The notes under the pieces: model-generated
Told to the model about the DNA's origin: nothing
Seen by the model: only the letters and a program-made list of their open reading frames with translations
Database searches by the model: none
Translations under genes and position numbers: made by a program
Shown here: positions 13,741-24,246 of the stretch, in pieces
How the letters are laid out: the number at the start of each line of letters is the position of its first letter
Numbering within the stretch: position 1 is the first letter of the stretch
Source: Escherichia coli O157:H7 str. 2011EL-2287
Lineage (GTDB): Bacteria > Pseudomonadota > Gammaproteobacteria > Enterobacterales > Enterobacteriaceae
Length of the DNA stretch: 64,000 nt
NCBI GenBank assembly: GCA_000614405.2
Contig: GCA_000614405.2_3612.1
Reading direction: 5' to 3' (one strand)

Positions 13741-13748
13741 TAGAATTT

Positions 13749-14164: not shown

Positions 14165-14341
14165 ATGGAAGGTAATATGATCCCCCTGGAAAATGTAGCT
14201 ATTAATGACGCTGAGGCTATCGCCCTGGTTGAAAAGGCTATGGCGGGAGCGTTGGAACATAAAGAAGAGTACGAAAAAATGATGGTTAACCTGGCAGGGG
14301 CGGCGGCTGGAGAATTCTACCCAAAAAATAATTTTAACTAA
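14165..14341 (+). CDS. hypothetical small protein (58 aa)
   Basis: ORF below track cutoff; strong SD GAAGAGGAGG 7 nt before ATG. Confidence 0.5.
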   Translation: MEGNMIPLENVAINDAEAIALVEKAMAGALEHKEEYEKMMVNLAGAAAGEFYPKNNFN

Positions 14342-14344
14342 TGG

Positions 14345-14373
14345 TTGACAGCTCGGACAGTTCTTGTTATTCT
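14345..14373 (+). promoter_or_regulatory. sigma70-like promoter
   Basis: TTGACA-N17-TATTCT upstream of gene at 14429. Confidence 0.5.
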
Positions 14374-14428
14374 TATCCTCGCAAGGTGAACAACACCACA
14401 CCAATTAACAGAGAGGATAAAAAAAATC

Positions 14429-14626
14429 ATGAACGCCTACGGAATTAAAGTACGTCGCAACACTCGCCAGGTGGTCACCAATCAAGTGATTTGCCGGGTG
14501 GATGTAACCATCAACAACGGGCAAGGCCTTTATAAATTTCGTCGCGGTCATAGCTATACCCTGCAACAGCTTAACCGTTGCGCCCTGACAAAAGGTCAGA
14601 TCAACCACTGGTTTAATAAAAAATAA
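14429..14626 (+). CDS. hypothetical protein
   Basis: ORF with SD GAGAGGA and own promoter. Confidence 0.55.
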   Translation: MNAYGIKVRRNTRQVVTNQVICRVDVTINNGQGLYKFRRGHSYTLQQLNRCALTKGQINHWFNKK

Positions 14627-14628
14627 TG

Positions 14629-14657
14629 TTGACATATGGTCTGACACAAAATACACT
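14629..14657 (+). promoter_or_regulatory. sigma70-like promoter
   Basis: TTGACA-N17-TACACT upstream of gene at 14690. Confidence 0.5.
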
Positions 14658-14689
14658 GAAATCGCAAAAGACACTAAGAGGATAAAATC

Positions 14690-15088
14690 ATGAAAACCAC
14701 TACCTTTAATTTTGATAATGCGGACTTTTCTTTTTCTGATGTCAAGAACTGCCGCCGTGATCGTGGATTTTACAAGGCTTATAATCTGGTGGGCCTGGAC
14801 GATGACAATAATTTGCACGAAGTAGCTGAGATCCGGTATTATGCCGCCGCCAGTGGTAACACTCACTACTGCGTGTTTTGGATTCACGACAACAAGAACA
14901 ATAAGTACGGTTATACTGGCGGCAAGGCGAGCGGTCACGGTTACGATAAAGCTAACGCAGCACTTGAGAGTGCATTAAATGCTATGGGGATCACTGCCGA
15001 CGGCTGGATCTACGAAGAAGAGTTTTTGTCGGCACTTGCTGACCACCTGGGCTATAAAAAGCACATTGTGACATGCGCCCACGAATAA
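14690..15088 (+). CDS. hypothetical protein
   Basis: ORF with SD AAGAGGA. Confidence 0.55.
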   Translation: MKTTTFNFDNADFSFSDVKNCRRDRGFYKAYNLVGLDDDNNLHEVAEIRYYAAASGNTHYCVFWIHDNKNNKYGYTGGKASGHGYDKANAALESALNAMGITADGWIYEEEFLSALADHLGYKKHIVTCAHE

Positions 15089-15094
15089 AAATCA

Positions 15095-15151
15095 TTGACA
15101 CGCTGCAAAATTTAAGTAAACTAGACACAAAAGGCGGGAATGTTTCCCGCC
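15095..15151 (+). promoter_or_regulatory. sigma70-like promoter followed by leader stem-loop GGCGGGAATGTTTCCCGCC
   Basis: TTGACA-N16-TAAACT; 7-bp GC stem in leader; not followed by a U tract. Confidence 0.5.
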
Positions 15152-15170
15152 AGCACAAAGGAAAAAGATC

Positions 15171-15575
15171 ATGAATAAGAACGTACGCCGCATCATGAAC
15201 GAACTGGCAAACGATGAAAAAATTATTGACATGCACTTAGTGAACATTTGCCGCCGTTGTGTAACCTATAACAACCGCGCCGCAAAAGCGCGTGAGATGA
15301 ACGCAAAAGGCACCTTAAAGCCCTTCCAGGTGGTGGTAAAGGCCATTAAAGATGTAGCTAATACGGCAAACCAGGTACAGGGGAACACCAACGAGAGTAC
15401 CAATATTGATCCGGCTTACATCATGAAACGGATCCGGACCTGCAAGAACAAAGAGCAAGTGTATAACGTCATAGACTGGTTGGATTCCATGGGCGACGTG
15501 GTTTATAATAGGTTTTCTGCAGCCATTGAGATCCAGCTAGACAGGTTGGACGGGAAAGTACTAAAAACTTATTGA
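15171..15575 (+). CDS. hypothetical protein
   Basis: ORF with SD AAAGGAAAAAG. Confidence 0.55.
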   Translation: MNKNVRRIMNELANDEKIIDMHLVNICRRCVTYNNRAAKAREMNAKGTLKPFQVVVKAIKDVANTANQVQGNTNESTNIDPAYIMKRIRTCKNKEQVYNVIDWLDSMGDVVYNRFSAAIEIQLDRLDGKVLKTY

Positions 15576-15577
15576 GT

Positions 15578-15622
15578 TTATTTTTAGATGGCCTTGACTC
15601 CAGGGCCATCGATAAAGTAAAC
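15578..15622 (+). repeat. about 45-bp intergenic repeat element, copy 1 (TTATTTTTAGATGGCCTTGACTCCAGGGCCATCxATAAAGTAAA)
   Basis: Near-identical copies at about 16197, 19942 and a divergent one at 16533; each directly follows a stop codon; contains imperfect hairpin and TTGACT hexamer. Confidence 0.6.
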
Positions 15623-15655
15623 TAATCTCAGTTAAGCGAAAAAGGGGGCTTTAAG

Positions 15656-15775
15656 ATGGGCACTACACGCCAATACACAAAGGTAACTATTATCGTCTGC
15701 GTTGTCGGTTACATCCTGGCGCAAATGTTAATGAGTAGCGCTAACAGTTTTGCAAAATTTTTCTTAAATTTTTAA
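15656..15775 (+). CDS. hypothetical small hydrophobic peptide (39 aa)
   Basis: ORF below cutoff; SD AAAGGGGG; hydrophobic core VTIIVCVVGYILAQML. Confidence 0.35.
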   Translation: MGTTRQYTKVTIIVCVVGYILAQMLMSSANSFAKFFLNF

Positions 15776-15854
15776 TTGACAAGCTAACTTAGATCGGTAT
15801 ACTTAAACCCGTAAACGGGAAAACTTCCCAGAACACACAAAAGGAGAAAACACC

Positions 15855-16196
15855 ATGACCACTATGACCGCCGCAGAAAAAGCTATTCAGGTTGCCGCAC
15901 TGAAAAAACAGATCGCAGACCTTGAGAACAAGATCGATACCTTTGAAATCGACGAGGACAAGTACGACGAAAACTATGATGAATGGTTAGACGAGATCTA
16001 CGGAGAAATCATGATCGGAAACATTTCTTTTCTTCCGTCGCGTATCCTCAAGGAGCTAGATCCTATCGCTTACCGCTGCGGATTTAGCGACTACATCGAC
16101 AGCCTGGATATTGAGGACGATGAAGAATACCAGGAATTACAGACAGAGTTAGAAGAAGCAAAAGAAGAGCTTGCGGAGCTGGAAGAAAACGAGTAA
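15855..16196 (+). CDS. hypothetical acidic protein
   Basis: ORF with SD AAGGAGAAAA and upstream TTGACA promoter plus hairpin. Confidence 0.55.
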   Translation: MTTMTAAEKAIQVAALKKQIADLENKIDTFEIDEDKYDENYDEWLDEIYGEIMIGNISFLPSRILKELDPIAYRCGFSDYIDSLDIEDDEEYQELQTELEEAKEELAELEENE

Positions 16197-16244
16197 GATT
16201 ATTTTTAGATGGCCTTGACTCCAGGGCCATCAATAAAGTAAACT
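16197..16244 (+). repeat. about 45-bp intergenic repeat element, copy 2
   Basis: See copy 1. Confidence 0.6.
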
Positions 16245-16285
16245 TTATACTGTTAACACTGAACTAATGCATAGGAGTTAAAACC

Positions 16286-16531
16286 ATGGCAGCACTAATC
16301 ACCAAATATTATGCCCCTACCAACACCAAAAGCGCCCGTATCATGGTAAAAGGCTTCGGACGTAAAAAGGTTTACACCTGGGATTATGCCTTAGACACGG
16401 AAGACAACTACACCAACGCGATGACAGATTTTATTAATGAGCTGAACACGCGGATCTTGACAAATTATAAAATTACCGATATTGCCTATATAGGGGAAGG
16501 CGGGATCTGTTTTGTCGGTATCGTCAAATAA
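16286..16531 (+). CDS. hypothetical protein
   Basis: ORF with SD AGGAG. Confidence 0.55.
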   Translation: MAALITKYYAPTNTKSARIMVKGFGRKKVYTWDYALDTEDNYTNAMTDFINELNTRILTNYKITDIAYIGEGGICFVGIVK

Positions 16532-16532
16532 G

Positions 16533-16580
16533 CTGTTTTTTCGGTGGTCCTGGTAGCAGGGCCATCTATAAAGATAGTTT
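16533..16580 (+). repeat. intergenic repeat element, divergent copy 3
   Basis: GGTGGTCCTGGTAGCAGGGCCATCTATAAAGATAG resembles copies 1, 2 and 4. Confidence 0.4.
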
Positions 16581-16606
16581 ATCAACACAATGAAAGGAGA
16601 AAGTAC

Positions 16607-16960
16607 ATGATCAGCGGGGCAAGTTTTATTATTGGCGCTATTGCTACGGCTTTAATTGTAAACAAGATCCAATCTAAAAACGAAAAAGAGAGCAACGCGC
16701 TCACAGAATACCCATTTTGGGTATTCAACGACAATGAAGACTACATTATCAAGTACAAGAATGAGAAGGGCGACCAGGTAACACCGCGACCGATCCCGGC
16801 TTACAAGATGCAAGAAACACTATACCGCCTAAAGGCTGGAGGCGCAAAAATCGTAGACTTTTGGGGATATGATTGCAAGGATCAGGAGGTTATAAAGCGC
16901 CGTATCCGGGCTATTCAGGCCAATATTGAAGTTAGCAAGGGGGGAATATATGAAGATTAA
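16607..16960 (+). CDS. hypothetical membrane-anchored protein
   Basis: ORF with SD AAAGGAGAAAG; N-terminal hydrophobic segment. Confidence 0.55.
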   Translation: MISGASFIIGAIATALIVNKIQSKNEKESNALTEYPFWVFNDNEDYIIKYKNEKGDQVTPRPIPAYKMQETLYRLKAGGAKIVDFWGYDCKDQEVIKRRIRAIQANIEVSKGGIYED

Positions 16961-17147
16961 TTTTGAGAAGATTGTAAAGCGATCTCATGATTCCGAAGAG
17001 CTGCCGGAACGACGCCAGCGTAACAATAAACTGAATAAGCCGAAAAGATTTGGGAAGATCTGGCGAAATCACTATGATCGCAAATTACCCAGCCTGCTTT
17101 TGGAACGTGAACGACAAGCGGAACGATACCGCCACAAAGACAAATAG
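16950..17147 (+). CDS. hypothetical basic protein
   Basis: ORF with SD AAGGGGGG. Confidence 0.45.
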   Translation: MKINFEKIVKRSHDSEELPERRQRNNKLNKPKRFGKIWRNHYDRKLPSLLLERERQAERYRHKDK

Positions 17148-17155
17148 CAACCAAC

Positions 17156-17182
17156 GCCCCGCCATTGTGCGGGGTTTTTTAT
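17156..17182 (+). terminator. rho-independent terminator
   Basis: GCCCCGC-loop-GCGGGG hairpin followed by TTTTTTAT. Confidence 0.7.
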
Positions 17183-17393
17183 TTCTATCCTACGAATAGC
17201 GCCCCTGGTTGGCCCCACAAACGCCACAAAAGCCCCTACCTATGCAATCCCCTTTATTAACCTGAAAACATCACCCAGGGCCGTTTTATGGTGTTAAAAA
17301 ATATCATTGACAGTGATTTTATTTAAAGCTTGACACCTTGGAATAGTCCGGATATACTAACCACATCAAAGCAAGAAGGAAGGAGTAAACGCC

Positions 17394-17654
17394 ATGCGTA
17401 AATTAAAAAATTTTGATAAAGTTGATGTTGTCCTGAATAATTTTTACTACTGCAATAACAAGGCCATTTGGTGGCGTGATAGTTCCACCGATAAAGTCAA
17501 GGCGCGCTTTCTCCAGGGGCACTGGCAAGGCCGTCCAGTGATTAAAATCATGGGGCAATTGGTAGCGTTTAAAAATTGCCGCCGTGTTGATGACGTTGAA
17601 GAGATTTTAAGCATTTTGCGCCACAATAATTTAAAAAATAGTGTTGACAAGTAA
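17394..17654 (+). CDS. hypothetical protein
   Basis: ORF with SD GAAGGAAGGAG; upstream TTGACA-N17-TATACT promoter. Confidence 0.55.
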   Translation: MRKLKNFDKVDVVLNNFYYCNNKAIWWRDSSTDKVKARFLQGHWQGRPVIKIMGQLVAFKNCRRVDDVEEILSILRHNNLKNSVDK

Positions 17655-17700
17655 ATCTCGATAAGTATACTTAAACACACAGGCGGGAAAACTTCCCGCC
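17644..17700 (+). promoter_or_regulatory. sigma70-like promoter followed by leader stem-loop GGCGGGAAAACTTCCCGCC
   Basis: TTGACA-N16-TATACT; GC hairpin near predicted transcript start. Confidence 0.55.
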
Positions 17701-17728
17701 ACTAACAAAGAAAATAGGAGAAAATATC

Positions 17729-18352
17729 ATGACCACCGTTAACATTACCACAGGTTACAATTTATCTTTCGACGTGCTGACCGATGAACAAAAAGAAAAA
17801 GCTATTGAAATGGTCCGCGAAAGAGAAGAACACAGCGGGGATAACTTTTTTGCAGAAAGTGTAATTGAAGACTATAAAGAACATATCTTTCCAGAGTATG
17901 GCCTTGAAGATACCAAGGTACATTGGTCCGGCTTTTGGTGCCAGGGCGACGGCGCGTCAATCAGTGCGGAAAACGTGGATTTAGAAAAATTCTTGCGTAA
18001 AGTCAAGTCTCTGACTAAATTCCGCTCAATTCGTCACTTGTTCGGCACAATGCACGATGGCGAGCTATCCGCAAGTGTTGAGCGTGATCCATATAGCCGC
18101 TATAGTCACGAAAATACTGTGAGCGGGTACATCGATACTACATGGCTAGACCTGACAGCCAAGCAAGAAAGTAAGGTTGAAGAGCTGGAAGAGTTGATCA
18201 CCGAGAACGTACGGGAACTATCCCGCAAGGTTTACGTAGACCTGGAGCAAGCTTATCTTGAACAATTTACTACCGAAAACCTGATCGGCCTTATCGAGGC
18301 CAATGATTGGCGGTTTGATGTGGATGAATATGGAGAGATGAGTTTTTCATAA
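17729..18352 (+). CDS. hypothetical protein
   Basis: 207-aa ORF with SD ATAGGAGAAAA. Confidence 0.6.
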   Translation: MTTVNITTGYNLSFDVLTDEQKEKAIEMVREREEHSGDNFFAESVIEDYKEHIFPEYGLEDTKVHWSGFWCQGDGASISAENVDLEKFLRKVKSLTKFRSIRHLFGTMHDGELSASVERDPYSRYSHENTVSGYIDTTWLDLTAKQESKVEELEELITENVRELSRKVYVDLEQAYLEQFTTENLIGLIEANDWRFDVDEYGEMSFS

Positions 18353-18442
18353 ATAAAGTGTTGCAATAATCTAAAAACCTGCTATATTAAAACTCAAGGG
18401 GCAAGACGTTTGCCCCCCACACAAAACAAAGAGGAAAACATC

Positions 18443-18823
18443 ATGAAAAACACTACTAAAGCTATTGACACCGTCATGTTTAACCTGGTTACCTTTCGCG
18501 AGGATATGAAAGATCTTCCACGTGAAACAGTGTGCGATCACATTGAAAACTATCGCAAACTAATCAAAGAGTTGCCTTTAAAACGTGATCAGTATGCGGC
18601 TAACGCCATGCTTAATGCCATGATCAAAAAGATGATCCAGTGTGATTTAACTCTGGCCTATGACTATGCGGGTGGTCGTTTTGCAGTATACAATCAGCCC
18701 GTGCCCGGTATGGGCACCACCGAAGAATTGCACGCGTTAAATCTGAAGCAAGATGTATGGGATAACATGCCCCGCGTGGTGGTGTGGGCAGAAAGCGGAA
18801 AGATTTACGGCGATAATTTTTAA
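18443..18823 (+). CDS. hypothetical protein
   Basis: ORF with SD AAGAGGAAAA. Confidence 0.55.
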   Translation: MKNTTKAIDTVMFNLVTFREDMKDLPRETVCDHIENYRKLIKELPLKRDQYAANAMLNAMIKKMIQCDLTLAYDYAGGRFAVYNQPVPGMGTTEELHALNLKQDVWDNMPRVVVWAESGKIYGDNF

Positions 18824-18887
18824 TCAGGTAACAGGCGGCATATTTGCCGCCTTATTGTTAAACAGAGTTGCAAAAGAGGTACATAGA

Positions 18888-19259
18888 ATGGAATTTATTA
18901 TTTTGGCTGTAGTAGTTGCCTTGTTCAACGCCTGGATAGCTGGCAAAATAGGTAGATCCGCTTTTCTATGGTTTGTTATATCTATTTTCCTGGGAGTGGT
19001 TGCAACCATTGTACTAGTTATCCTTGCAATTGTTGACAAGGATAATAATAAGAAGGGTAAAGTATTTTCCGACCTGTATGACGCCCAAACTTTTGTTAAC
19101 GCCTATTATAGTGATCTTCCGGTCTCCTTGCGCTGCAGCCTGGCGCAACAAGTTTTTGATGAGGCTAAAACCAGAGATCAAGCCCATGAGATATGTTTAA
19201 CTGAGGCGGATCGCCTATTTGAGAGGAATAGAAAATATGTGGGCCAGCCGTTTAAATAA
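18888..19259 (+). CDS. hypothetical membrane protein (two predicted TM helices)
   Basis: ORF with SD AAAGAGG; hydrophobic N-terminal half. Confidence 0.55.
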   Translation: MEFIILAVVVALFNAWIAGKIGRSAFLWFVISIFLGVVATIVLVILAIVDKDNNKKGKVFSDLYDAQTFVNAYYSDLPVSLRCSLAQQVFDEAKTRDQAHEICLTEADRLFERNRKYVGQPFK

Positions 19260-19482
19260 TACCACGTTAATTAATCCCTTTAATGAAGATTTGAAGCCAG
19301 CCGCCTGGCGTGATGGATTCAATAACGAACGCTTTATTTTCAGGCCTGATCTTGAGGAATTTTATAACAATGGATCGAACAACGACAGAGATAATTTTTC
19401 TTGTGATGTGCGTGGTGATGGTACTCCTGGGGGACATTGTAAACCACGTCACTACTACCAGGAGGAAAGGGGGAGACGATGA
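19237..19482 (+). CDS. hypothetical protein
   Basis: ORF with SD GAGAGGAA. Confidence 0.45.
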   Translation: MWASRLNNTTLINPFNEDLKPAAWRDGFNNERFIFRPDLEEFYNNGSNNDRDNFSCDVRGDGTPGGHCKPRHYYQEERGRR

Positions 19483-19598
19483 CAACCAAGGATAAGCCCC
19501 GCACCGATAAGGTGCGCCAGGTTATGGTATGGCTTGAGATCATCGCCCTTGAAATATTGTTAGGGGTAGGAATGTACTTTATTGCTATAAGTAACTGA
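19479..19598 (+). CDS. hypothetical small membrane peptide (39 aa)
   Basis: ORF below cutoff; SD GGAGGAAAGGGGGAG; ATGA overlap with upstream stop; hydrophobic C-terminal half. Confidence 0.4.
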   Translation: MTTKDKPRTDKVRQVMVWLEIIALEILLGVGMYFIAISN

Positions 19599-19602
19599 TA
19601 AC

Positions 19603-19630
19603 GCCCCCGATCATGGGGGCTTAACTTTTT
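19603..19630 (+). terminator. rho-independent terminator
   Basis: GCCCCCGA-loop-GGGGGC hairpin followed by T-rich tract. Confidence 0.6.
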
Positions 19631-19737
19631 CAAAAAATTTTTCTTCCAGGGTGTTGCAATCTGGTCCGCAATATGGATAATAACAATCAACGGGGAAACA
19701 TCCCCACCAACACAAAAACCAGAAAGGAGAAACAAAA

Positions 19738-19938
19738 ATGAGCAACAATATCCGCGTTATTAACTTCAAAAAAGAAGAAAAAATTGCCGTGCTGATTGAC
19801 GGTCAAGAAATCTTCAAGGGCGACTATGAAGATCATCAAACGGCGATTAGTATCACTCGCGTGATTGGTTACCATAATTTTTACCCCCAAGGCGCTGAGG
19901 CGGCGGTTAAACGAATCAAAGAGATTGTAGGCCTGTAA
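19738..19938 (+). CDS. hypothetical protein
   Basis: ORF with SD AAAGGAGAAA; upstream TTGCAA-N16-GATAAT promoter and GGGGAAACATCCCC hairpin. Confidence 0.55.
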   Translation: MSNNIRVINFKKEEKIAVLIDGQEIFKGDYEDHQTAISITRVIGYHNFYPQGAEAAVKRIKEIVGL

Positions 19939-19941
19939 AAT

Positions 19942-19988
19942 TTATTTTTAGATGGCCTTGACTCTAGGGCCATCAATAAAGTAAATTT
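19942..19988 (+). repeat. about 45-bp intergenic repeat element, copy 4
   Basis: See copy 1. Confidence 0.6.
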
Positions 19989-20031
19989 AAACCCTGTTAA
20001 AATACCACGCAGTTAACAAGGAGTGATAGAC

Positions 20032-20331
20032 ATGTTTATCCAGGCTAATAATCTTTATTTCTTTGATGGTCAGATCGTAGATGGTGTGGAAGTGGAGATC
20101 ACTGGGTGCCCTGGTGGTCAGGCTATGACTTTTCGGAATAATGCCTTTGATGATTCTCATATCGTTATGAGAATGGAAGTTACAAAGCTGGACGACAAGA
20201 AAACGCTCATTGACTATTCCGTGAAAGATCATCCAGACTACCACATGATCTATGGTGATTTGTGCATTGTTGACCGTGACAAGGTGGGCGGCATTGTGAT
20301 CGCTATTGTGAACGATGTTTTCTCTGTATAG
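20032..20331 (+). CDS. hypothetical protein
   Basis: ORF with SD AAGGAG before ATG 20032 (GTG 20023 alternative). Confidence 0.5.
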   Translation: MFIQANNLYFFDGQIVDGVEVEITGCPGGQAMTFRNNAFDDSHIVMRMEVTKLDDKKTLIDYSVKDHPDYHMIYGDLCIVDRDKVGGIVIAIVNDVFSV

Positions 20332-20389
20332 TTCCGGCAAATGATGCAAAATAAGGCCCCTAGCAGGGCCTGCAGCGATATAATCACAT

Positions 20390-20423
20390 AAAGGCCATGC
20401 GGTTGCATGGCCTTTATTATTTT
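20390..20423 (+). terminator. rho-independent terminator
   Basis: AAAGGCCATGC-GGTT-GCATGGCCTTT hairpin followed by ATTATTTT. Confidence 0.7.
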
Positions 20424-20552
20424 GGCGTTACAACGGCCTCCAAGGCGCTTAAAAATTTTTTAAAGAAGTACTTGCATCAAGCCCTACAATATGGATAATA
20501 GTACGTGTCAGGGGGCGGCCCCCAATCATTAACAGAAACAGGAGTTAAAACT

Positions 20553-20837
20553 ATGGCTATTGTTACCGCTGGCGATGTAGTAGAAATGGAAGCAAAATAC
20601 TTAAAAGCGGGTATGCATATCCTGCGCAACGATCTTGAACTGGTCTTGACAATGGTTGACTATAACCCAGGGCAAGATTATCCAAGTGTTGACTACTTTT
20701 TTGAGTATGTTGATGAAGAGTTGAAAGAGGATGAGGCCTATTGCGGTGAGTTCTGCAACTTCTTTTGTCCTGATGAGGTTGTAAAGGTTATCTATCAACC
20801 TGGCGTAGCTTTCCCGCTGCACGCTATCAATAAATAA
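20553..20837 (+). CDS. hypothetical protein
   Basis: ORF with SD ACAGGAG; upstream TTGCAT-N16-GATAAT promoter and GGGGGCGGCCCCC hairpin. Confidence 0.55.
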   Translation: MAIVTAGDVVEMEAKYLKAGMHILRNDLELVLTMVDYNPGQDYPSVDYFFEYVDEELKEDEAYCGEFCNFFCPDEVVKVIYQPGVAFPLHAINK

Positions 20838-20899
20838 ACCTGGCGGGGCCGAAAAGGCCTCCGCCTGAAATTATGAAAAATAAAAAGAGGCAAACTATC

Positions 20900-21130
20900 A
20901 TGATGGAACAAATTAAACGCGCTGAGGCTATTAATGGCAATGTGATCTATTTTGTCAGCAATAACGAAAAAGGCGTACCATATGCGGCGGTAATAGTACA
21001 GCCTGACGGCGATTATTGGTTTACTGTGTACGGCGCTTACTCTTTTGGGCGTCCAGTGCATGATAAAATTTTGAAAGTAGCGAACCCTACCGGGAAGAAT
21101 ATCACAGCAGAAAAATTTTTTGAAAAATAG
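20900..21130 (+). CDS. hypothetical protein
   Basis: ORF with SD AAAGAGG. Confidence 0.5.
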   Translation: MMEQIKRAEAINGNVIYFVSNNEKGVPYAAVIVQPDGDYWFTVYGAYSFGRPVHDKILKVANPTGKNITAEKFFEK

Positions 21131-21185
21131 TTGACATGGCCTTATAAGACTGTAGAATATAAATCAAAGGGGGCAACAAGCCCCA
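21131..21185 (+). promoter_or_regulatory. sigma70-like promoter followed by leader stem-loop
   Basis: TTGACA-N16-TAGAAT, then GGGGGCAACAAGCCCC hairpin and CACAAAGAGGA leader. Confidence 0.55.
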
Positions 21186-21210
21186 CCAACCACAAAGAGG
21201 ATAAAAAATC

Positions 21211-21390
21211 ATGGCTATTATTGCAAAGACTGAGATCGTAGGCTTAGATTCTATTCTCCTCGCATATGAGGAAGCTATAGAAATGTATGTGGTTTCCTAT
21301 GGTGAATATATCCGTGAATATAAATCTATTGATCTGGCTTTTGAATGTTATATTCGCCAGGTTAATAAAGCGTACGATGATTATCGTTAA
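21211..21390 (+). CDS. hypothetical protein (59 aa)
   Basis: ORF below cutoff; SD AAAGAGGATAAAA; own promoter. Confidence 0.5.
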   Translation: MAIIAKTEIVGLDSILLAYEEAIEMYVVSYGEYIREYKSIDLAFECYIRQVNKAYDDYR

Positions 21391-21480
21391 AATAGCTTGA
21401 CAACAAACAACCATCTAACAAAGCATAATACATAAGGCGGTGGAATGGTCCGCCACCTGGAACAAGAAGAGGAAAACAAG

Positions 21481-21585
21481 ATGAAACAGAAATTAATTGA
21501 TGCGGTGATCCTGGTTATTGCCCTGGGTATTGGCCTGATTGCAACCATGTCTAATATGATCTTGTCTTCCAACGGTATCGGGTGA
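21481..21585 (+). CDS. hypothetical small membrane peptide (34 aa)
   Basis: ORF below cutoff; SD AAGAGGAAAA; hydrophobic. Confidence 0.4.
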   Translation: MKQKLIDAVILVIALGIGLIATMSNMILSSNGIG

Positions 21586-21594
21586 GGTTGGCAA

Positions 21595-21810
21595 ATGATC
21601 ACTAACAAAACAGGCAAAACAGAATTTTTACGCAACTTACAGATCGGCAAGCCTGAGATCTGGTATTGCACTAAAACACCACGTGACGAAATGAAAGACT
21701 TCACCGCCACGCTGCAACGGGTAAAGATATCCATCACGCAGAAAAAGGCCTTATTAGTGGTGGAAGGTGAGATCCCCCAAACCGTTGTTATAGTTGAGCG
21801 TACAGCATAG
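21595..21810 (+). CDS. hypothetical protein
   Basis: ORF with SD GAGG upstream. Confidence 0.5.
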   Translation: MITNKTGKTEFLRNLQIGKPEIWYCTKTPRDEMKDFTATLQRVKISITQKKALLVVEGEIPQTVVIVERTA

Positions 21811-21901
21811 TTTAATTTATACCGATACCCGAAAATTAACCAACAAAGCATAAACAGGCGGTTACCGCCGCCTTAAACGTAGCAGAAAGAGGATAGACAC
21901 A

Positions 21902-22186
21902 ATGAAAAAGATGATCGCAGCGGTTGCCCTGGTTGTTGGACTTAATGCGCCTGTAATGGCTAAAGAGCTGGCAAAAGAGGTTAATCTAACGGATATTCAT
22001 GCCGTCAATCAAATCGGGGTTACTTATCGCTTATGCCTTGCCGCTAAAACTTTCCAGGACGGCACGACAGAGTACTACGGATTCGAGGGTATCCGGTGCG
22101 GTGAGCTTGCTCGCGACCTTAAGGAAGATCCAGACCTGGAAGATCTGCCCATCACCGTAAACGGTAAAGCTTACGTAAACCGTTAA
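21902..22186 (+). CDS. hypothetical secreted or periplasmic protein
   Basis: ORF with SD AAAGAGGA; N-terminal signal-peptide-like MKKMIAAVALVVGLNAPVMA. Confidence 0.55.
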   Translation: MKKMIAAVALVVGLNAPVMAKELAKEVNLTDIHAVNQIGVTYRLCLAAKTFQDGTTEYYGFEGIRCGELARDLKEDPDLEDLPITVNGKAYVNR

Positions 22187-22188
22187 CC

Positions 22189-22323
22189 ATGAGAAAGATA
22201 ATCATCACCTTGGGGATTGTGGCGGGATCGCTGGCGCTCTTTCCCATTATGGTTAGGTATGTGCTGATCAGTATTGTCCTGGTAGTCAGTGATCTATTGG
22301 AAACGGTTGGCACCTTGTTTTAA
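22189..22323 (+). CDS. hypothetical small membrane peptide (44 aa)
   Basis: ORF below cutoff immediately after upstream stop; hydrophobic; weak SD. Confidence 0.3.
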   Translation: MRKIIITLGIVAGSLALFPIMVRYVLISIVLVVSDLLETVGTLF

Positions 22324-22342
22324 AGAGCGATAAAAAAAAAAA

Positions 22343-22534
22343 ATGAATGTCGAACAAGTTAGAAAGGTATTGGCGGTACTGCGTTATCATAATCATAGAA
22401 AGGTCATAGACGATCCTGATTATGTCGATTCAAACCTGGAAGAGGATACACTACAAGCCATAAGTAACATGCAAGAATTGCTAAAGCGCATGACAGAGAA
22501 AAACCGACCGGACTACATAGGCGAAAAAATATAA
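22343..22534 (+). CDS. hypothetical protein
   Basis: ORF. Confidence 0.45.
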   Translation: MNVEQVRKVLAVLRYHNHRKVIDDPDYVDSNLEEDTLQAISNMQELLKRMTEKNRPDYIGEKI

Positions 22535-22549
22535 TATTTATAAACTACA

Positions 22550-22580
22550 AAACAGGGCTTGCAATGGTCCTGTTTTTTGT
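22550..22580 (+). terminator. rho-independent terminator
   Basis: CAGGGC-loop-GTCCTG hairpin followed by TTTTTTGTT. Confidence 0.65.
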
Positions 22581-22744
22581 TATACTTATTCCACGGCAGG
22601 CACCTGGCGACGGGGGAGACAATCACCGGGCCTGCCTGTCATATAAGAACTATAAAAACCGTTGACATCTGCCATGGGGTGGGGTAACATTTATCTTGAA
22701 GGGGCAAAAGTGCCCACACAACACCCAGGAGAGAGGAAAACATT

Positions 22745-23017
22745 ATGTCAAGCTGGATTAATCAAGAAGTCGAATCACGTTTTAATGCTATATGGGATCT
22801 CATCGAAAAAGAGGACGGAACATCAAGCCCCTACCTCAACAATTTGGAATTCCATTTTGTGGAAGCGATGAACGCAGAACATGATCACGAAGGTGGCGCA
22901 GATGAGTTCGCTAAAGGTTATGGCTTTAACAATGCCAACGAAATGATCGAGGCGGTAGTACTCCAGGCTGAGGAAGATTATCAATTAAAAACGCTTGAAT
23001 TCTGCCGCCGTAAGTAA
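22745..23017 (+). CDS. hypothetical protein
   Basis: ORF with SD AGGAGAGAGGAAAA; upstream TTGACA promoter and hairpin. Confidence 0.55.
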   Translation: MSSWINQEVESRFNAIWDLIEKEDGTSSPYLNNLEFHFVEAMNAEHDHEGGADEFAKGYGFNNANEMIEAVVLQAEEDYQLKTLEFCRRK

Positions 23018-23077
23018 TAAGATAATGACACGGGCCAAAAGGCCCACTAATCAGAACCACACAAAGAGAGAAAGAAA

Positions 23078-23296
23078 ATGACAACCCGTAAAATTAAAGT
23101 TGTTTGCATTGAATCGACTGGGGGCGCTTTTGTAGTTGGTCAGGAATATAATGCGGTTTTAATGGGTACGGATTGGAAGGTTAAAGGCCTTAATGGTTAC
23201 GAGTACGGCACTACTTGCGGCTTGCGTGGTCGAATCGGATACGTGAGTTTAGACAATAAAGAAAAATTTGTTTTCGACACCCTTGTGAGTAAATAG
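23078..23296 (+). CDS. hypothetical protein
   Basis: ORF with SD AAAGAGAGAAAG; GGGCCAAAAGGCCC hairpin in leader. Confidence 0.5.
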   Translation: MTTRKIKVVCIESTGGAFVVGQEYNAVLMGTDWKVKGLNGYEYGTTCGLRGRIGYVSLDNKEKFVFDTLVSK

Positions 23297-23373
23297 CATG
23301 AATTGCTAAAAACTGATCTGCGAACTGCTGTATTATCAACTAATCAAAACGAACCACATAAAGAGGAAACATC

Positions 23374-23637
23374 ATGAAACGTCTGGATCAGCTTAAACTA
23401 GTTCAGTACATGGCCTACAAAGTTCTTGAAGTCCAAAAAGGTAGCAAAAAAGAGGTTTGCGAGAAAGCTTATAAGATCTTTACCCGCAAAAAAGATGACT
23501 GGATGCTACGCCAGACCAAAAAGGCTGACATCTTGGGGTACCTGGAAGAAGAGATCCGCCTTGAAGAGCAAGAAGAGATCCGCCGCAGTGAAGCAGATTA
23601 TCAGGCAGCCTGGGAAAACTGGATGAATAACAAATAA
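23374..23637 (+). CDS. hypothetical protein
   Basis: ORF with SD AAAGAGGAAA. Confidence 0.5.
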   Translation: MKRLDQLKLVQYMAYKVLEVQKGSKKEVCEKAYKIFTRKKDDWMLRQTKKADILGYLEEEIRLEEQEEIRRSEADYQAAWENWMNNK

Positions 23638-23782
23638 TACAACAAGTTACATGGTCAGGGGGGCAATAAAGCCCCTTGATCACATAAAAATTATGCTATC
23701 CTTATTGACAAGGATCGGCAGTTTTGCTATATTCTTTTTTAAAGGGAAGTTGTAAGAAAATTAACTAAGAGGTAAAAACACC

Positions 23783-24202
23783 ATGAACATTAAATCTAAT
23801 AATCCGGCATATAGCTTTGATAACGCTTTTTGTCACGGTCCGGCGGCGAAAGGATTCGAAATCGATGGTAAACTAATTATTGTCAATGTTGACGGGGAAG
23901 AGGTTGCAGTATATCCGGTGGCAGACGTAAAAAGCCGTTTACAATGCCGCATTGATGTTACCGCCTATCAGCTTGATCCGGTCCGCATAGTTGCCCTGGT
24001 CCTGGAAGAAGAAATTAAAGCCATGCACCATAGCAACAGGTTTATTGGTGACGCTCAGGATAATATGAAGGTGTGCCGCCATAAAGTTAATGAAGTGCTT
24101 AAAGAGTACGGCTATAAAGATCTTATGATCAAACGTGATGAAAAATTCCGGTACCGTAACGACCTGGCAAATCGGATTTTTGAAATATACGAATCATTAT
24201 AA
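23783..24202 (+). CDS. hypothetical protein
   Basis: ORF with SD AAGAGG; upstream TTGACA-N17-TATATT promoter. Confidence 0.55.
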   Translation: MNIKSNNPAYSFDNAFCHGPAAKGFEIDGKLIIVNVDGEEVAVYPVADVKSRLQCRIDVTAYQLDPVRIVALVLEEEIKAMHHSNRFIGDAQDNMKVCRHKVNEVLKEYGYKDLMIKRDEKFRYRNDLANRIFEIYESL

Positions 24203-24220
24203 TTTTTTAACTGAATTATC

Positions 24221-24246
24221 AAGGGGCTTAGGCCCCTTTCTTTTTG
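24221..24246 (+). terminator. rho-independent terminator ending the plus-strand gene array
   Basis: AGGGGC-TTAG-GCCCCT hairpin followed by TTCTTTTTG. Confidence 0.7.

What the first reader, a model, noticed from the sequence alone, without database searches (positions are those of the whole stretch)
14165..24246. Array of about 30 small genes, each with its own promoter, 5' GC hairpin and stereotyped leader
Unlike the tightly coupled operons elsewhere, nearly every gene in this 10 kb block has a near-consensus sigma70 promoter (TTGACA/TTGCAA-N16-17-TAnAnT), then a short GC hairpin near the predicted transcript 5' end (e.g. GGCGGGAAnnTTCCCGCC, GGGGGCGGCCCCC, GGGCCAAAAGGCCC) not followed by a U tract, then a conserved leader CACAAAGAGGAAAAcaTCATG. 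At least seven rho-independent terminators punctuate the block. Products are small (34-207 aa), several are membrane or secreted, and none has a recognisable domain. The modular cassette structure suggests a fast-evolving accessory set (host takeover, superinfection exclusion or anti-defense) with 5' stem-loops possibly stabilising mRNAs.
Basis: partly seen in the sequence, partly recalled or inferred. Interest (0 to 1): 0.62.

Follow-up and report, generated by a model that had tools for sequence, protein, structure and literature searches.

The report
Shuffling promoter-hairpin early-gene cassettes
A 10-kb stretch of an rV5-like E. coli phage holds 29 small genes of unknown function, many in self-contained promoter-hairpin-ribosome-site cassettes like the "PeSL" cassettes of T4-like phages, and related phages differ by gain, loss and swapping of genes at exactly these cassettes.

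Summary
The window is a Vequintavirus (rV5-like phage). The block is rV5 ORFs 197-164, all hypothetical. There are 29 genes. Fourteen have a canonical sigma70 promoter, not nearly all. Twelve have a GC hairpin upstream, and six (not seven) terminators lie on the + strand. Where promoter and hairpin co-occur, the stem starts 9-11 nt after the -10 at six sites (13 nt at gene 6, 11 nt at the degenerate gene 18 promoter). Shuffles give 0.07 such pairs against six observed, and the other 54 kb has none. Hairpins persist in every ortholog examined, with loop turnover, some compensatory changes and only G.T wobbles. This points to a structure on the sense strand. The leaders that follow are A-rich and U-poor.

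This is the PeSL architecture (promoter-early stem-loop) described for T4-like phages, here with the stem-loop in the 5' UTR. Indels among ten relatives have junctions in the -35 boxes, hairpins and leaders. The same cassettes occur in Phapecoctavirus, Justusliebigvirus and the jumbo phage 121Q.

My best explanation is mobile, autonomous early-expression cassettes. The hairpin's role as 5'-end mRNA protector and/or attenuator is inferred, not shown. I rate it a new variant of a known kind, of moderate interest.

The parts
14106..14164 (+). Cassette of gene 1: degenerate promoter TTGCAA-17-TATAGG (14106-14134) plus leader GAAGAGGAGG; no hairpin
   Evidence: read from sequence; below the scan threshold
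14165..14341 (+). gene 1, 58 aa
   Evidence: no Pfam hit; absent from MiataMamis
14345..14428 (+). Cassette of gene 2: TTGACA-17-TATTCT (14345-14373), no strong hairpin, leader AGAGAGGATAAAAAAAATC
14429..14626 (+). gene 2, 65 aa
14629..14689 (+). Cassette of gene 3: TTGACA-17-TACACT (14629-14657), no hairpin
14690..15088 (+). gene 3, 132 aa
   Evidence: phrog_7028, unknown function; no PDB sequence match
15095..15170 (+). Cassette of gene 4: TTGACA-16-TAAACT (15095-15122), hairpin GGCGGGAATGTTTCCCGCC (15133-15151, starts 10 nt after the -10, -13.1 kcal/mol), leader AGCACAAAGGAAAAAGATC
15171..15575 (+). gene 4, 134 aa
15575..15655 (+). Type-B cassette of gene 5: 49-nt repeat; 10-bp hairpin GATGGCCTTG-ACTC-CAGGGCCATC (15587-15610) encloses the -35 TTGACT; 18-nt spacer to TAAACT
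   Evidence: D1
15656..15775 (+). gene 5, 39 aa, hydrophobic
15776..15854 (+). Cassette of gene 6: TTGACA-16-TATACT (15776-15803), conserved hairpin GGGAAAACTTCCC (15817-15829, starts 13 nt after the -10)
   Evidence: 74% identical over 66 nt to the gene 11 cassette (D5)
15855..16196 (+). gene 6, 113 aa, acidic
16196..16285 (+). Type-B cassette of gene 7 (hairpin 16208-16231 over the -35 TTGACT; -10 TAAACT)
   Evidence: D1
16286..16531 (+). gene 7, 81 aa
16531..16606 (+). Degenerate type-B element upstream of gene 8 (67% identical to the reference copy; no canonical -35)
   Evidence: D1
16607..16960 (+). gene 8, 117 aa, hydrophobic N terminus
16950..17147 (+). gene 9, 65 aa, very basic; overlaps gene 8; Pfam Phage_1_1 (T7 gp1.1 family)
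   Evidence: E = 1.5e-11, 45 bits, cut-off 21
17156..17185 (+). Intrinsic terminator GCCCCGC-CATTGT-GCGGGGT followed by TTTTTATTT
17307..17393 (+). Cassette of gene 10: orphan -35 TTGACA (17307) that marks a deletion scar, then TTGACA-17-TATACT (17330-17358); no hairpin
   Evidence: MiataMamis carries about 540 bp with extra ORFs between the two TTGACA boxes
17394..17654 (+). gene 10, 86 aa
17644..17728 (+). Cassette of gene 11: TTGACA-16-TATACT (17644-17671), hairpin GGCGGGAAAACTTCCCGCC (17682-17700, starts 10 nt after the -10)
   Evidence: cassette and gene precisely absent from phage YP-6, -35 to -35
17729..18352 (+). gene 11, 207 aa; confident model with no significant fold match; homolog in jumbo phage 121Q
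18361..18442 (+). Cassette of gene 12: TTGCAA-16-TATATT (TG-extended; 18361-18388), hairpin GGGGCAAGACGTTTGCCCC (18398-18416, starts 9 nt after the -10), leader CCACACAAAACAAAGAGGAAAACATC
18443..18823 (+). gene 12, 126 aa; shared with Phapecoctavirus, Justusliebigvirus and 121Q at 68-70% aa identity
18833..18859 (+). Terminator or attenuator AGGCGGCA-TATT-TGCCGCCT followed by TATTGTT
18888..19259 (+). gene 13, 123 aa, two predicted membrane helices; no promoter of its own
19237..19482 (+). gene 14, 81 aa, overlaps gene 13
19479..19598 (+). gene 15, 39 aa, hydrophobic C terminus; 4-nt overlap with gene 14
19603..19630 (+). Terminator GCCCCC-GATCAT-GGGGGC followed by TTAACTTTTT
19654..19737 (+). 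Cassette of gene 16: TTGCAA-16-GATAAT (19654-19681), hairpin GGGGAAACATCCCC (19692-19705, starts 10 nt after the -10), CA-rich leader
   Evidence: loop and inner stem vary among orthologs while the stem is kept
19738..19938 (+). gene 16, 66 aa
19939..20031 (+). Type-B cassette of gene 17 (hairpin 19951-19974 over the -35; -10 TAAATT)
   Evidence: D1
20032..20331 (+). gene 17, 99 aa
20354..20425 (+). Hairpin AGGCCCCTAGCAGGGCCT (20354-20371) followed by a strong terminator (20388-20425)
20472..20552 (+). Cassette of gene 18: degenerate promoter TTGCAT-17-GATAAT (20472-20499), hairpin GGGGGCGGCCCCC (20511-20523, starts 11 nt after the -10)
   Evidence: stem changes GGGGG/CCCCC to GGAGG/CCTCC in three relatives
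20553..20837 (+). gene 18, 94 aa
20842..20899 (+). Hairpin-only element upstream of gene 19: GGCGGGGCC-GAAAA-GGCCTCCGCC (20842-20865); includes a CCTGGCGGGGCC motif; no promoter
20900..21130 (+). gene 19, 76 aa
21131..21210 (+). Cassette of gene 20: TTGACA-16-TAGAAT (21131-21158), hairpin GGGGGCAACAAGCCCC (21169-21184), leader ACCAACCACAAAGAGGATAAAAAATC
   Evidence: in YP-6 the -35 is the left junction of a replacement
21211..21390 (+). gene 20, 59 aa
21397..21480 (+). Degraded cassette of gene 21: TTGACA with a 21-nt spacer to CATAAT (17 nt in phage AlexBoehm), hairpin GGCGGTGGAATGGTCCGCCACC (21436-21457)
   Evidence: hotspot for insertions and replacements
21481..21585 (+). gene 21, 34 aa, hydrophobic
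21595..21810 (+). gene 22, 71 aa
21856..21901 (+). Hairpin-only element upstream of gene 23: AGGCGGTTACCGCCGCCT (21856-21873)
21902..22186 (+). gene 23, 94 aa, N-terminal signal-peptide-like segment
22189..22323 (+). gene 24, 44 aa, hydrophobic; absent from MiataMamis
22343..22534 (+). gene 25, 63 aa
22549..22586 (+). Composite terminator-promoter: the -35 TTGCAA lies within terminator hairpin CAGGGC/GTCCTG, the T tract forms the spacer, and the -10 is TATACT
   Evidence: listed as both terminator and promoter
22593..22639 (+). Conserved non-coding element ACGGCAGGCACC...GGGAGACAATCACCGGGCCTGCC downstream of the 22559 promoter
   Evidence: function unknown
22662..22744 (+). Cassette of gene 26: TTGACA-17-TAACAT (22662-22690), hairpin GGGGCAAAAGTGCCC (22701-22715)
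22745..23017 (+). gene 26, 90 aa; distant homologs (33-52% aa identity) in several other phage groups
23021..23077 (+). Degraded cassette of gene 27: -10-like GATAAT (23021-23026) with no canonical -35, hairpin GGGCCAAAAGGCCC (23032-23045), leader GAACCACACAAAGAGAGAAAGAAA
23078..23296 (+). gene 27, 72 aa; absent from 7 of the 11 Vequintavirus relatives, with the crossover inside the leader
23352..23373 (+). Leader of gene 28, GAACCACATAAAGAGGAAACATC; recombination partner of the gene 27 leader
23374..23637 (+). gene 28, 87 aa
23656..23678 (+). Intercistronic hairpin CAGGGGGGCAATAAAGCCCCTTG, no T tract; recombined with terminator 24221 in phage nimi
23705..23782 (+). Cassette of gene 29: TTGACA-17-TATATT (TG-extended; 23705-23733), no hairpin
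23783..24202 (+). gene 29, 139 aa; absent from nimi
24221..24246 (+). Terminator AAGGGGC-TTAG-GCCCCTT followed by TCTTTTTG; end of the block

Best explanation
The block is the hyperplastic accessory (presumably early) gene region of an rV5-like phage. It is built from PeSL-type cassettes.

Each full cassette is an autonomous expression unit with five parts: an A/T-rich upstream stretch; a host sigma70 promoter; a G-run/C-run stem-loop that starts about 10 nt after the -10; an unstructured A/C-rich, U-poor leader with a strong Shine-Dalgarno sequence; and a small ORFan gene.

Shown here:
- The elements exist far above chance.
- The stem-loop is kept as a structure on the sense strand across orthologs.
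- The repeated promoter, hairpin and leader sequences are where relatives have recombined, so genes are gained, lost and swapped cassette by cassette, also between phage genera.

Inferred:
- Host RNA polymerase starts 2-4 nt upstream of the stem (6 nt for gene 6), so each cassette's own mRNA begins with a 5'-proximal hairpin.
- That hairpin, together with the U-poor leader, shields the mRNA from 5'-end-dependent RppH/RNase E decay.
- It also gives every cassette the same local fold whichever gene or upstream transcript it is joined to.
- On read-through transcripts the same hairpin may attenuate transcription or mark a processing or 3'-protection point.

Degraded copies are recombination scars. 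These are hairpin-only elements, promoters with the wrong spacer, and orphan -35 boxes.
For: Identity of the locus. The block is 94% identical over 100% of its length to rV5 ORFs 197-164. The rV5 paper places these genes at the end of the transcription unit 10-1-238-164, driven by sigma70-type promoters.

Non-random architecture. Six promoter-hairpin pairs have the stem starting 9-11 nt after the -10, against 0.07 in shuffles, and there are none in the other 54 kb. Across 12 rV5-like loci I found 73 distinct promoter-hairpin strings, with the distance peaking at 10 nt (29 strings), 11 nt (10) and 9 nt (8). The 25 nt upstream of the -35 are 73% A+T, against 57% for the block.

Structure rather than sequence is kept. 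A hairpin of -5 to -19 kcal/mol is present in every ortholog examined for all 13 elements. Loops turn over and there are compensatory changes: in gene 18 GGGGG/CCCCC becomes GGAGG/CCTCC; the inner stem of the gene 4 hairpin is replaced in MiataMamis; G and C runs expand together in genes 12 and 18. Internal non-Watson-Crick pairs are 12 G.T and 0 A.C. This fits a fold of the sense strand, not of duplex DNA.

Geometry. With a start at the 8th nt after the -10, the 5' tails are 2-4 nt (6 nt for gene 6). The hairpins fold with probability 0.83-1.0 in both the cassette's own transcript and a read-through transcript. Leaders are 57% A and 7% U.

Recombination at cassette elements:
- Gene 27 was lost by a crossover inside the shared leader GAACCACAyAAAGAG.
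- Gene 11 was lost from one -35 to the next.
- Gene 29 was lost by a crossover between two GGGGC...GCCCCTT hairpins.
- Genes 20-21 were replaced starting exactly at TTGACA.
- A 540-bp insertion lies between two TTGACA boxes.
- Phapecoctavirus-type cassettes are inserted in the Vequintaviruses Mangalyan, YP-6 and nimi.

The same cassettes occur elsewhere. I counted about 22 in 14.5 kb of Schickermooser. They are also in phi92-like PATM and jumbo phage 121Q. Between Schickermooser and 121Q, homology spans the -10, the hairpin and the gene. An 89-nt cassette matches 578 places in 166 phage records.

Context for the mRNA-protection idea. rV5 gp11 is a probable homolog of T4 Srd, and Srd stimulates RNase E against host mRNA.
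Against: - No transcription start site, half-life or expression-timing data exist for these phages in the literature I could search. 'Early' and 'transcribed hairpin' are therefore inferences.
- Four hairpins lack a canonical promoter. Four canonical promoters (genes 2, 3, 10, 29) have no hairpin at all, and in three more (the type-B cassettes of genes 5, 7 and 17) the hairpin encloses the -35 instead of following the -10.
- Some orthologs carry uncompensated stem mismatches (gene 11 hairpin in four relatives).
- RNase E readily passes internal stem-loops orthogonal to its path. Protection would therefore work only for the 5'-terminal copy.
- From my own knowledge, RppH needs only 2-3 unpaired nucleotides, so tails of 2-4 nt are borderline.
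- The PeSL authors found that a stem-loop without a U tract cut downstream lacZ expression as much as rrnB T1. This favours an attenuator role.
- Three of about eleven indels have no cassette element at their junctions.
- Within Vequintavirus most of the genes are conserved.
Confidence: 0.7

Rival explanations
1. The hairpins act only as transcription terminators or attenuators. They stop or damp read-through from upstream cassettes, as originally proposed for PeSLs, and have no role at the 5' end of their own transcript.
For: A PeSL stem-loop placed between a strong promoter and lacZ reduced expression about as much as the rrnB T1 terminator. Four hairpins (genes 19, 21, 23, 27) and the one at 23656 sit just after a stop codon without a canonical promoter. 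In RB49 the stem-loop lies inside the promoter and cannot be part of its own mRNA.
Against: None of the 12 hairpins has a T tract or was flagged on the + strand. Leaders are 7% T. Six canonical terminators with T tracts exist separately in the block. A terminator role does not explain why the stem starts 9-11 nt after the -10 in most of 73 distinct cassettes whose intervening sequences differ.
Confidence: 0.2
2. The palindromes work at the DNA level. They would be operators for a phage shut-off repressor bound just downstream of the early promoters, or attC-like target sites of a dedicated recombinase.
For: The stem sequences GGCGGGAA...TTCCCGCC and GGGCGGCAAT.GTGCCGCTC recur almost unchanged in four phage genera. 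One deletion junction lies inside two hairpins. In one relative the loop of the gene 4 hairpin is exactly inverted, TGT to ACA, which is a DNA-level template-switch signature. The PeSL authors raised the idea of a stem-loop-binding protein.
Against: Stem sequences differ widely among cassettes of one genome. Internal mismatches are only G.T (12 G.T, 0 A.C), which implies one folded strand, not a duplex site. Loops vary freely. Most junctions are in the -35 boxes or leaders, not in the hairpins. This fits general homologous recombination.
Confidence: 0.07
3. The hairpins are terminators for antisense transcription that enters the block from the convergent - strand unit.
For: Six of the hairpins are flagged as terminator-like on the - strand, because the A-rich start region reads as a T-rich tail there.
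Against: The tails are poor (for example TGTGTGTTTA). In Phapecoctavirus-type cassettes the corresponding sequence is TATGTGATAC. Only five promoter-like sites lie on the - strand of the block. The fixed distance to the sense -10 remains unexplained.
Confidence: 0.03

Closest known systems
PeSL (promoter-early stem-loop) cassettes of T4-like phages RB49/phi1, PST/T4 and nt-1/KVP40 (Arbiol et al. 2010, PMC2839356; Comeau et al. 2014, PMC4122927)
   Same: Both have an A/T-rich upstream region (including an AAAGTGTTGACA-like context), a near-consensus sigma70 promoter, a G-run/C-run stem-loop with G.T pairs, and a Shine-Dalgarno sequence plus ATG. Both are many copies packed between ORFans in a hyperplastic region. 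In both, indels between close relatives have junctions in the elements, and degraded copies occur with wrong spacing or as hairpin-only remnants (searches compared).
   Different: The host lineages differ: Vequintavirinae, Stephanstirmvirinae and Asteriusvirus rather than Straboviridae. No paper in the searched library links PeSLs to these phages. In RB49 the stem-loop lies between the -35 and -10 or over the -10. Here it mostly starts about 10 nt after the -10 and so should be part of the 5' UTR. Only the four type-B copies and the 22549 composite match the 'over the -35' subclass. Promoter activity, terminator activity and mini-circles were shown experimentally for RB49/phi1 and not here.
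5'-terminal stabiliser stem-loops of E. coli mRNAs (ompA 5' UTR type; RppH/RNase E 5'-end-dependent decay)
   Same: A stable hairpin lies within a few nucleotides of the predicted 5' end, followed by an unstructured leader. The pathway is summarised.
   Different: No 5' ends or half-lives have been measured here. The rule that only about 2-4 unpaired 5' nucleotides are tolerated is from my own knowledge (Emory, Bouvet and Belasco 1992). Internal copies on read-through RNA would not block RNase E scanning.
Morons of lambdoid phages (gene plus its own promoter and terminator)
   Same: Both are autonomously expressed accessory genes inserted between other genes. The PeSL paper draws this comparison.
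   Different: Morons lack conserved flanking repeats that mediate their own exchange. Here the flanks are repeated and are the junctions of exchange.
Integron gene cassettes
   Same: Both are arrays of small promoter-dependent cassettes, each with a hairpin-forming element, exchanged as units. The PeSL authors make this analogy.
   Different: There is no integrase and no attC organisation. Each cassette has its own promoter. Junctions are spread over the -35 boxes, hairpins and leaders, which indicates homologous rather than site-specific recombination.
Host-takeover module of Bacillus phage SPO1 (own knowledge)
   Same: Both are a dense cluster of about two dozen small early genes with many strong host-type promoters and strong ribosome-binding sites.
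   Different: The phage and host are unrelated. To my knowledge no repeated promoter-hairpin unit or cassette shuffling is described there. This was not tested here.

Membership tests
PeSL cassettes | Near-consensus sigma70-type promoter | tested here: met
   Fourteen genes have a promoter with at least 9 of 12 matches in the intergenic DNA upstream, eight of them with 10-11 of 12. This is a consensus match only; activity was not measured.
PeSL cassettes | [quoted passage not shown] | tested here: met
   73% A+T in the 25 nt upstream of 14 promoters, against 57% for the block.
PeSL cassettes | Stable stem-loop with a G run then a C run, associated with the promoter | tested here: met
   Twelve hairpins upstream of genes, all with a G-rich 5' arm. 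The position differs from the commonest RB49 classes. [quoted passage not shown]
PeSL cassettes | Shine-Dalgarno sequence and start codon of a downstream gene at the 3' end | tested here: met
   The ATG lies 17-36 nt after the hairpin; leader consensus AGGAG-AAAA.
PeSL cassettes | Many copies clustered in a variable region rich in ORFans | tested here: met
   The cassettes are confined to 14.1-24.2 kb of the 64-kb window. Twenty-eight of 29 products have no Pfam domain.
PeSL cassettes | Indels and replacements between close relatives with junctions in or beside the elements | tested here: met
   About eight of eleven events have a junction in a -35 box, hairpin or leader.
PeSL cassettes | Demonstrated promoter and attenuator activity; excised mini-circles | not testable with these tools
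   This needs reporter assays and inverse PCR on infected cells.
Rho-independent terminators (as the identity of the 5' hairpins) | GC stem-loop followed directly by a U tract | tested here: not met
   None of the 12 was flagged on the + strand. Leaders are 7% T.
5'-terminal mRNA stabiliser hairpins | Hairpin within about 2-4 nt of the mapped 5' end, and longer half-life dependent on the stem | tested here: inconclusive
   Predicted tails are 2-4 nt for seven cassettes and 6 nt for gene 6, if transcription starts at the 8th nt after the -10. No start site or half-life data are available.
Integron cassettes | attC site recombined site-specifically by an integron integrase | tested here: not met
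   Junctions are dispersed over the -35 boxes, leaders and hairpins. No integrase-like domain is present in the block.
Known RNA families (Rfam) | Match to a curated covariance model | tested here: not met
   No match at E up to 1 in 13000-28000.

The most novel reading that the evidence does not exclude
The promoter-hairpin unit may be more than a passive homology patch. It could be a horizontally mobile expression-and-capture module shared by at least five unrelated groups of coliphages: Krischvirus, Vequintavirus, Phapecoctavirus, Justusliebigvirus and Asteriusvirus. Its conserved G-run/C-run 5' hairpin (for example GCGGGAA-loop-TTCCCGC, with the 17-nt hairpin GCGGGAACACTTCCCGC identical in Schickermooser and 121Q) would be specifically read by a factor. 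One possibility is that it exempts phage early mRNAs from the RNase E activity that a phage Srd-like protein turns on host mRNA. Another is that a small basic phage protein binds it, such as the T7 gp1.1-like product of gene 9. On this reading the arrays would be an integron-like gene-capture platform of lytic phages with a built-in 'self' mark on the mRNA.
Probability: 0.12. Interest if true: 0.75.

Novelty: new variant of a known kind. Interest (0 to 1): 0.45.

Why it matters
Large lytic phages carry hundreds of small genes of unknown function. These are thought to hold host-takeover and anti-defence activities. How such genes are acquired, expressed and exchanged is poorly understood.

This finding suggests that the PeSL mechanism is not peculiar to T4-like phages. 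It operates in at least three further myovirus lineages that are widely isolated for therapy (rV5-like, phAPEC8-like and phi92-like phages) and in 121Q-like jumbo phages.

That gives three things:
- a simple rule for delimiting accessory cassettes in these genomes;
- a ready-made set of strong, compact, insulated expression units (promoter, 5' hairpin, leader) for engineering;
- a concrete and testable link between cassette design and mRNA survival during infection.

It also warns that gene content in this region can change by recombination between co-infecting phages of different genera.

Tried and rejected
- Rfam scan of 13-28 kb at E up to 1: nothing.
- tRNA scan of the window: none.
- Pfam on all 29 products: only T7 gp1.1 for gene 9.
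- PHROGs on the ten largest products: all unknown function.
- PDB sequence search for genes 3, 11 and 29: nothing significant.
- IMG/VR scan with gene 13: only two loci. I therefore drew comparative data from GenBank phage records.
- Consensus folding of the conserved GGGAGACAAYCACC element: no supported structure. I do not call it an sRNA.
- boxB/N-type antitermination: considered and set aside, because loop length and sequence vary freely.
- RNase III sites: set aside, because the stems are only 5-10 bp.
- The CCCGTAAACGGG hairpin upstream of gene 6 is specific to the window and one relative. The conserved hairpin there is GGGAAAACTTCCC.
- Literature searches for a prior description in rV5-like, phAPEC8-like or phi92-like phages found none. 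One search was too broad to be informative.
- I did not build a covariance model. The hairpins are too short to be specific.

Full report
**What the window is.** The 10-kb block matches 239 phage records. Phage rV5 (Vequintavirus) aligns over 100% of it at 94% identity. The block corresponds to rV5 ORFs 197-164. All are annotated hypothetical, and the depositors marked six sigma70 promoters and two terminators there. The rV5 paper places these genes at the distal end of a transcription unit 10-1-238-164. It notes E. coli-type promoters across the genome but does not mention 5' hairpins or repeated cassettes. Upstream (window 1-13 kb) lie tightly packed replication genes: primase/helicase, DNA polymerase and endonuclease VII. 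Downstream is the non-coding stretch that separates this unit from the convergent - strand unit.

**Checking the observation.** I defined 29 ATG-initiated + strand genes of 34-207 aa. The block is only 76% coding.

- Promoter-like sites are enriched: 43 against 27.9 +/- 5.2 in the tool scan of both strands, and 30 against 11.4 in shuffles on the + strand.
- Fifteen of the 30 lie in intergenic DNA. Fourteen of these sit directly upstream of genes 2, 3, 4, 5, 6, 7, 10, 11, 12, 16, 17, 20, 26 and 29. The fifteenth precedes a non-coding element.
- Genes 1, 18, 21 and 27 have degenerate promoters. Eleven genes have none. 'Nearly every gene' is therefore an overstatement.
- Twelve genes are preceded by a GC hairpin.
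- Six promoters have a strong hairpin that starts 9-11 nt after the -10. In 300 dinucleotide shuffles the mean was 0.07 and the maximum 1. No such pair exists in the other 54 kb on either strand. Gene 6 (13 nt) and the degenerate gene 18 promoter (11 nt) bring the promoter-hairpin cassettes to eight.
- None of the hairpins has a T tract. The leaders that follow are 57% A, 20% C, 15% G and 7% T, against 25% T in the block.
- The leader consensus is A(-13)-GG-(A/G)-G-AAAA-n-A-n-C-ATG-A.
- Six + strand terminators punctuate the block.
It is a 49-nt unit in four copies (one degenerate), whose 10-bp hairpin encloses a TTGACT -35. The terminator at 22549 likewise carries a -35 within its hairpin and uses its T tract as the spacer.

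**The products.** Only gene 9 has a Pfam domain, Phage_1_1, the T7 gp1.1 family of unknown function. The ten largest products fall in PHROGs of unknown function. Genes 3, 11 and 29 have no relatives among solved structures. The 207-aa product of gene 11 gives a confident model (pLDDT 87) with no significant fold match. Read directly from the translations, seven products look membrane-associated or secreted: genes 5, 8, 13, 15, 21, 23 and 24.

**The same architecture in relatives.**

- In the Phapecoctavirus Schickermooser the homologous region holds about 22 nearly stereotyped units in 14.5 kb. They have the form TTGACA-N16-TAAGAT-gtatcacrta-GGGCGGCAATGGTGCCGCTC or GGGCGGGAAnnnTTCCCGCyC.
- The phi92-like phage PATM has them too.
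- So does the 349-kb jumbo phage 121Q. There the 17-nt hairpin GCGGGAACACTTCCCGC is identical to one in Schickermooser, and homology runs through the -10, the hairpin and the gene.
- An 89-nt cassette finds 578 places in 166 phage records.
- Across the window, ten further Vequintavirus loci, Schickermooser and PATM, I collected 73 distinct promoter-to-hairpin strings. The distance from the -10 to the stem peaks sharply at 10 nt (29 strings), 11 nt (10) and 9 nt (8), although the intervening sequences differ. The ATG follows 17-36 nt after the stem.

**Structure or sequence?** For 13 hairpin elements I aligned the orthologs available among eleven Vequintavirus loci (4-11 relatives per element). 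Every ortholog retains a hairpin of -5 to -19 kcal/mol.

- Loops turn over. The gene 16 loop is AAACA, AGCTAA or ACA. The gene 27 loop is AAAA or GGGA. The gene 23 loop is replaced outright.
- Stems change with compensation. In gene 18 GGGGG/CCCCC becomes GGAGG/CCTCC. The inner stem of the gene 4 hairpin changes from GAA/TTC to TTGA/TCAG. G and C runs lengthen together.
- A few orthologs carry uncompensated mismatches, for example the gene 11 hairpin.
- In 36 unique hairpins the internal non-Watson-Crick pairs are 12 G.T and 0 A.C, and the 5' arm is always the G-rich one.

This points to a fold of the sense strand (the RNA, or the non-template DNA strand). It argues against a duplex palindrome read by a dimeric protein.

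**What it is.** This is the architecture published as PeSL (promoter-early stem-loop) for the T4-like phages RB49 and phi1, and later for PST/T4 and nt-1/KVP40. A PeSL has an A/T-rich upstream region, a strong sigma70 promoter, a G-run/C-run stem-loop with G.T pairs, and a Shine-Dalgarno sequence plus ATG. PeSLs are clustered between ORFans in hyperplastic regions, and recombination between copies causes indels and mini-circles. I printed the RB49 elements for comparison. Even the context upstream of the -35 is alike (AAAAGTTGTTGACA against AAATAGTGTTGACA). In RB49, however, the stem-loop sits between the -35 and -10 or over the -10. Here it mostly lies beyond the -10. Only the type-B repeats and the 22549 composite match the 'over the -35' class.

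**Testing the defining evolutionary property.** I compared the window with ten relatives.

- Gene 27 is missing from seven relatives. The junction lies inside the leader shared by genes 27 and 28, GAACCACAyAAAGAG.
- Gene 11 is missing from YP-6, from its -35 exactly to the next -35.
- Gene 29 is missing from nimi through a crossover between two GGGGC...GCCCCTT hairpins.
- Genes 20-21 are replaced in YP-6, and gene 21 is replaced in MiataMamis, nimi and Mangalyan. Each replacement starts exactly at TTGACA, and the incoming DNA carries Phapecoctavirus-type cassettes.
- MiataMamis has about 540 bp with extra ORFs between the two tandem TTGACA boxes at 17307 and 17330.
- AlexBoehm and Mangalyan have an extra gene inserted at the leader of gene 21.
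- Three events show no cassette element at the junction: an extra gene coupled after gene 17, the loss of gene 24, and a large deletion in an 'UNVERIFIED' record.
- The window also holds degraded copies of the kind described for PeSLs. The gene 21 promoter has a 21-nt spacer where AlexBoehm has 17. Hairpin-only elements precede genes 19 and 23. An orphan -35 lies at 17307.

Gene content fits an accessory region. Within Vequintavirus most genes are retained. Only 10 of 29 are shared with Schickermooser, 4 with PATM and 3 with 121Q. Nucleotide coverage falls from at least 93% within the genus to 37%, 8% and 8-12% in those groups.

**How it most likely works.**

*Shown:* the units are non-random, structurally conserved and recombinogenic.

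*Inferred:* E. coli RNA polymerase usually starts 7-8 nt after the -10. Most cassettes have a pyrimidine-purine step there (c7-a8). This would give each cassette's own mRNA a 5' tail of 2-4 nt before the stem, or 6 nt for gene 6. From my own knowledge (Emory, Bouvet and Belasco 1992; Deana et al. 2008), a stem-loop that close to the 5' end hinders RppH and the 5'-monophosphate sensor of RNase E. The pathway is summarised. The U-poor leader would also offer few RNase E sites and no terminator tail. The hairpin folds with probability 0.83-1.0 whether the RNA starts at the cassette's own promoter or 150 nt upstream. It would therefore insulate the ribosome-binding site from whatever lies upstream, which suits a unit that is moved around.

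The rV5 paper reports a probable homolog of T4 Srd, and Srd stimulates RNase E against host mRNA. That gives a plausible reason for such protection, but it is speculation.

The published alternative is that the stem-loop attenuates read-through. It rests on one lacZ experiment, and I cannot exclude it. It does explain the hairpin-only elements. It does not explain the fixed distance to the -10 or the absence of T tracts. I consider a dual role likely.

**Novelty.** In the searchable library PeSLs are discussed only for T4-like phages, or merely cited. Nothing links them to rV5-, phAPEC8-, phi92- or 121Q-like phages. I therefore rate this a new variant of a known kind. It has the same logic and the same evolutionary behaviour, but it occurs in new lineages, with the stem-loop moved into the 5' UTR and with evidence for exchange of cassettes between genera.

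**Limits.** No transcript ends, timing or half-lives are available. The comparative set is 11 Vequintavirus loci plus one locus each from three other genera and RB49. Orthologs and paralogs share ancestry, so the hairpin and wobble counts are not independent events. The absence of a prior description holds only for the library I could search.

Noticed in passing
window 22559-22650 (+), 14002-13900 (-), 13862-13770 (-): Three copies of a sigma70-like promoter, each followed about 20-30 nt later by a conserved core GGGAGACAAyCACCGGG. The element is also present, again downstream of a promoter, in Phapecoctavirus and Justusliebigvirus loci. The two - strand copies overlap rV5 'ORF198' (window 13752-14033), which may not be a gene. 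There is no Rfam match, and RNAalifold finds no supported consensus structure, so the conservation is at the sequence level. Function is unknown; it could be a small transcript or a protein-binding site.
   Followed up: partly
window 13451-13641: Three direct repeats of about 52 nt, spaced 65-74 nt apart (TTTCCAGGTACTCGATCTGTTTTTCGTTT...). They lie in a non-coding stretch (13.3-14.1 kb) between the replication genes and the cassette block. The arrangement is iteron-like, so this is a possible origin or regulatory region (D2).
   Followed up: no
window 13983, 14051, 14065, 20839: The motif CCTGGCGGGGCC occurs four times on the + strand, against 0.05 expected. Three copies cluster just upstream of gene 1. 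One forms the 5' arm of the hairpin upstream of gene 19.
   Followed up: no
window 24250-27000: An AT-richer stretch (GC 0.386) with no convincing ORFs lies between the convergent + and - strand units. It corresponds to the 'non-coding' box in the rV5 genome map. It contains weak promoter-like and hairpin sites on the - strand.
   Followed up: no
window 15133-15151 and locus L014 (IMG/VR contig): In one relative the loop of the perfectly palindromic gene 4 hairpin is exactly inverted (GGCGGGAA-TGT-TTCCCGCC becomes GGCGGGAA-ACA-TTCCCGCC). This is the signature of a hairpin template-switch or inversion at the DNA level.
   Followed up: no
window 16950-17147: Gene 9 encodes a 65-aa, very basic, arginine-rich protein of the T7 gp1.1 family (Pfam Phage_1_1, E = 1.5e-11). 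It overlaps gene 8 by 11 nt. It is the only product in the block with a Pfam family, and the function of that family is unknown.
   Followed up: partly
GenBank records MG0656xx named 'Campylobacter phage' (e.g. L011): Twenty-three records labelled Campylobacter phage (host C. jejuni, some 'UNVERIFIED') are 93-97% identical to this E. coli Vequintavirus region. Their host label looks doubtful. One has a 1.7-kb deletion with both ends inside genes.
   Followed up: no
window 17729-18352: The gene 11 product (207 aa) has invariant motifs WSGFW-QGDGAS and SRYSHE in an alignment of 15 of its 40 detected homologs, which include jumbo phages and metagenomes. It gives a confident AlphaFold model (pLDDT 87) without a recognisable fold match. 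This is possibly a new fold of an accessory phage protein.
   Followed up: partly
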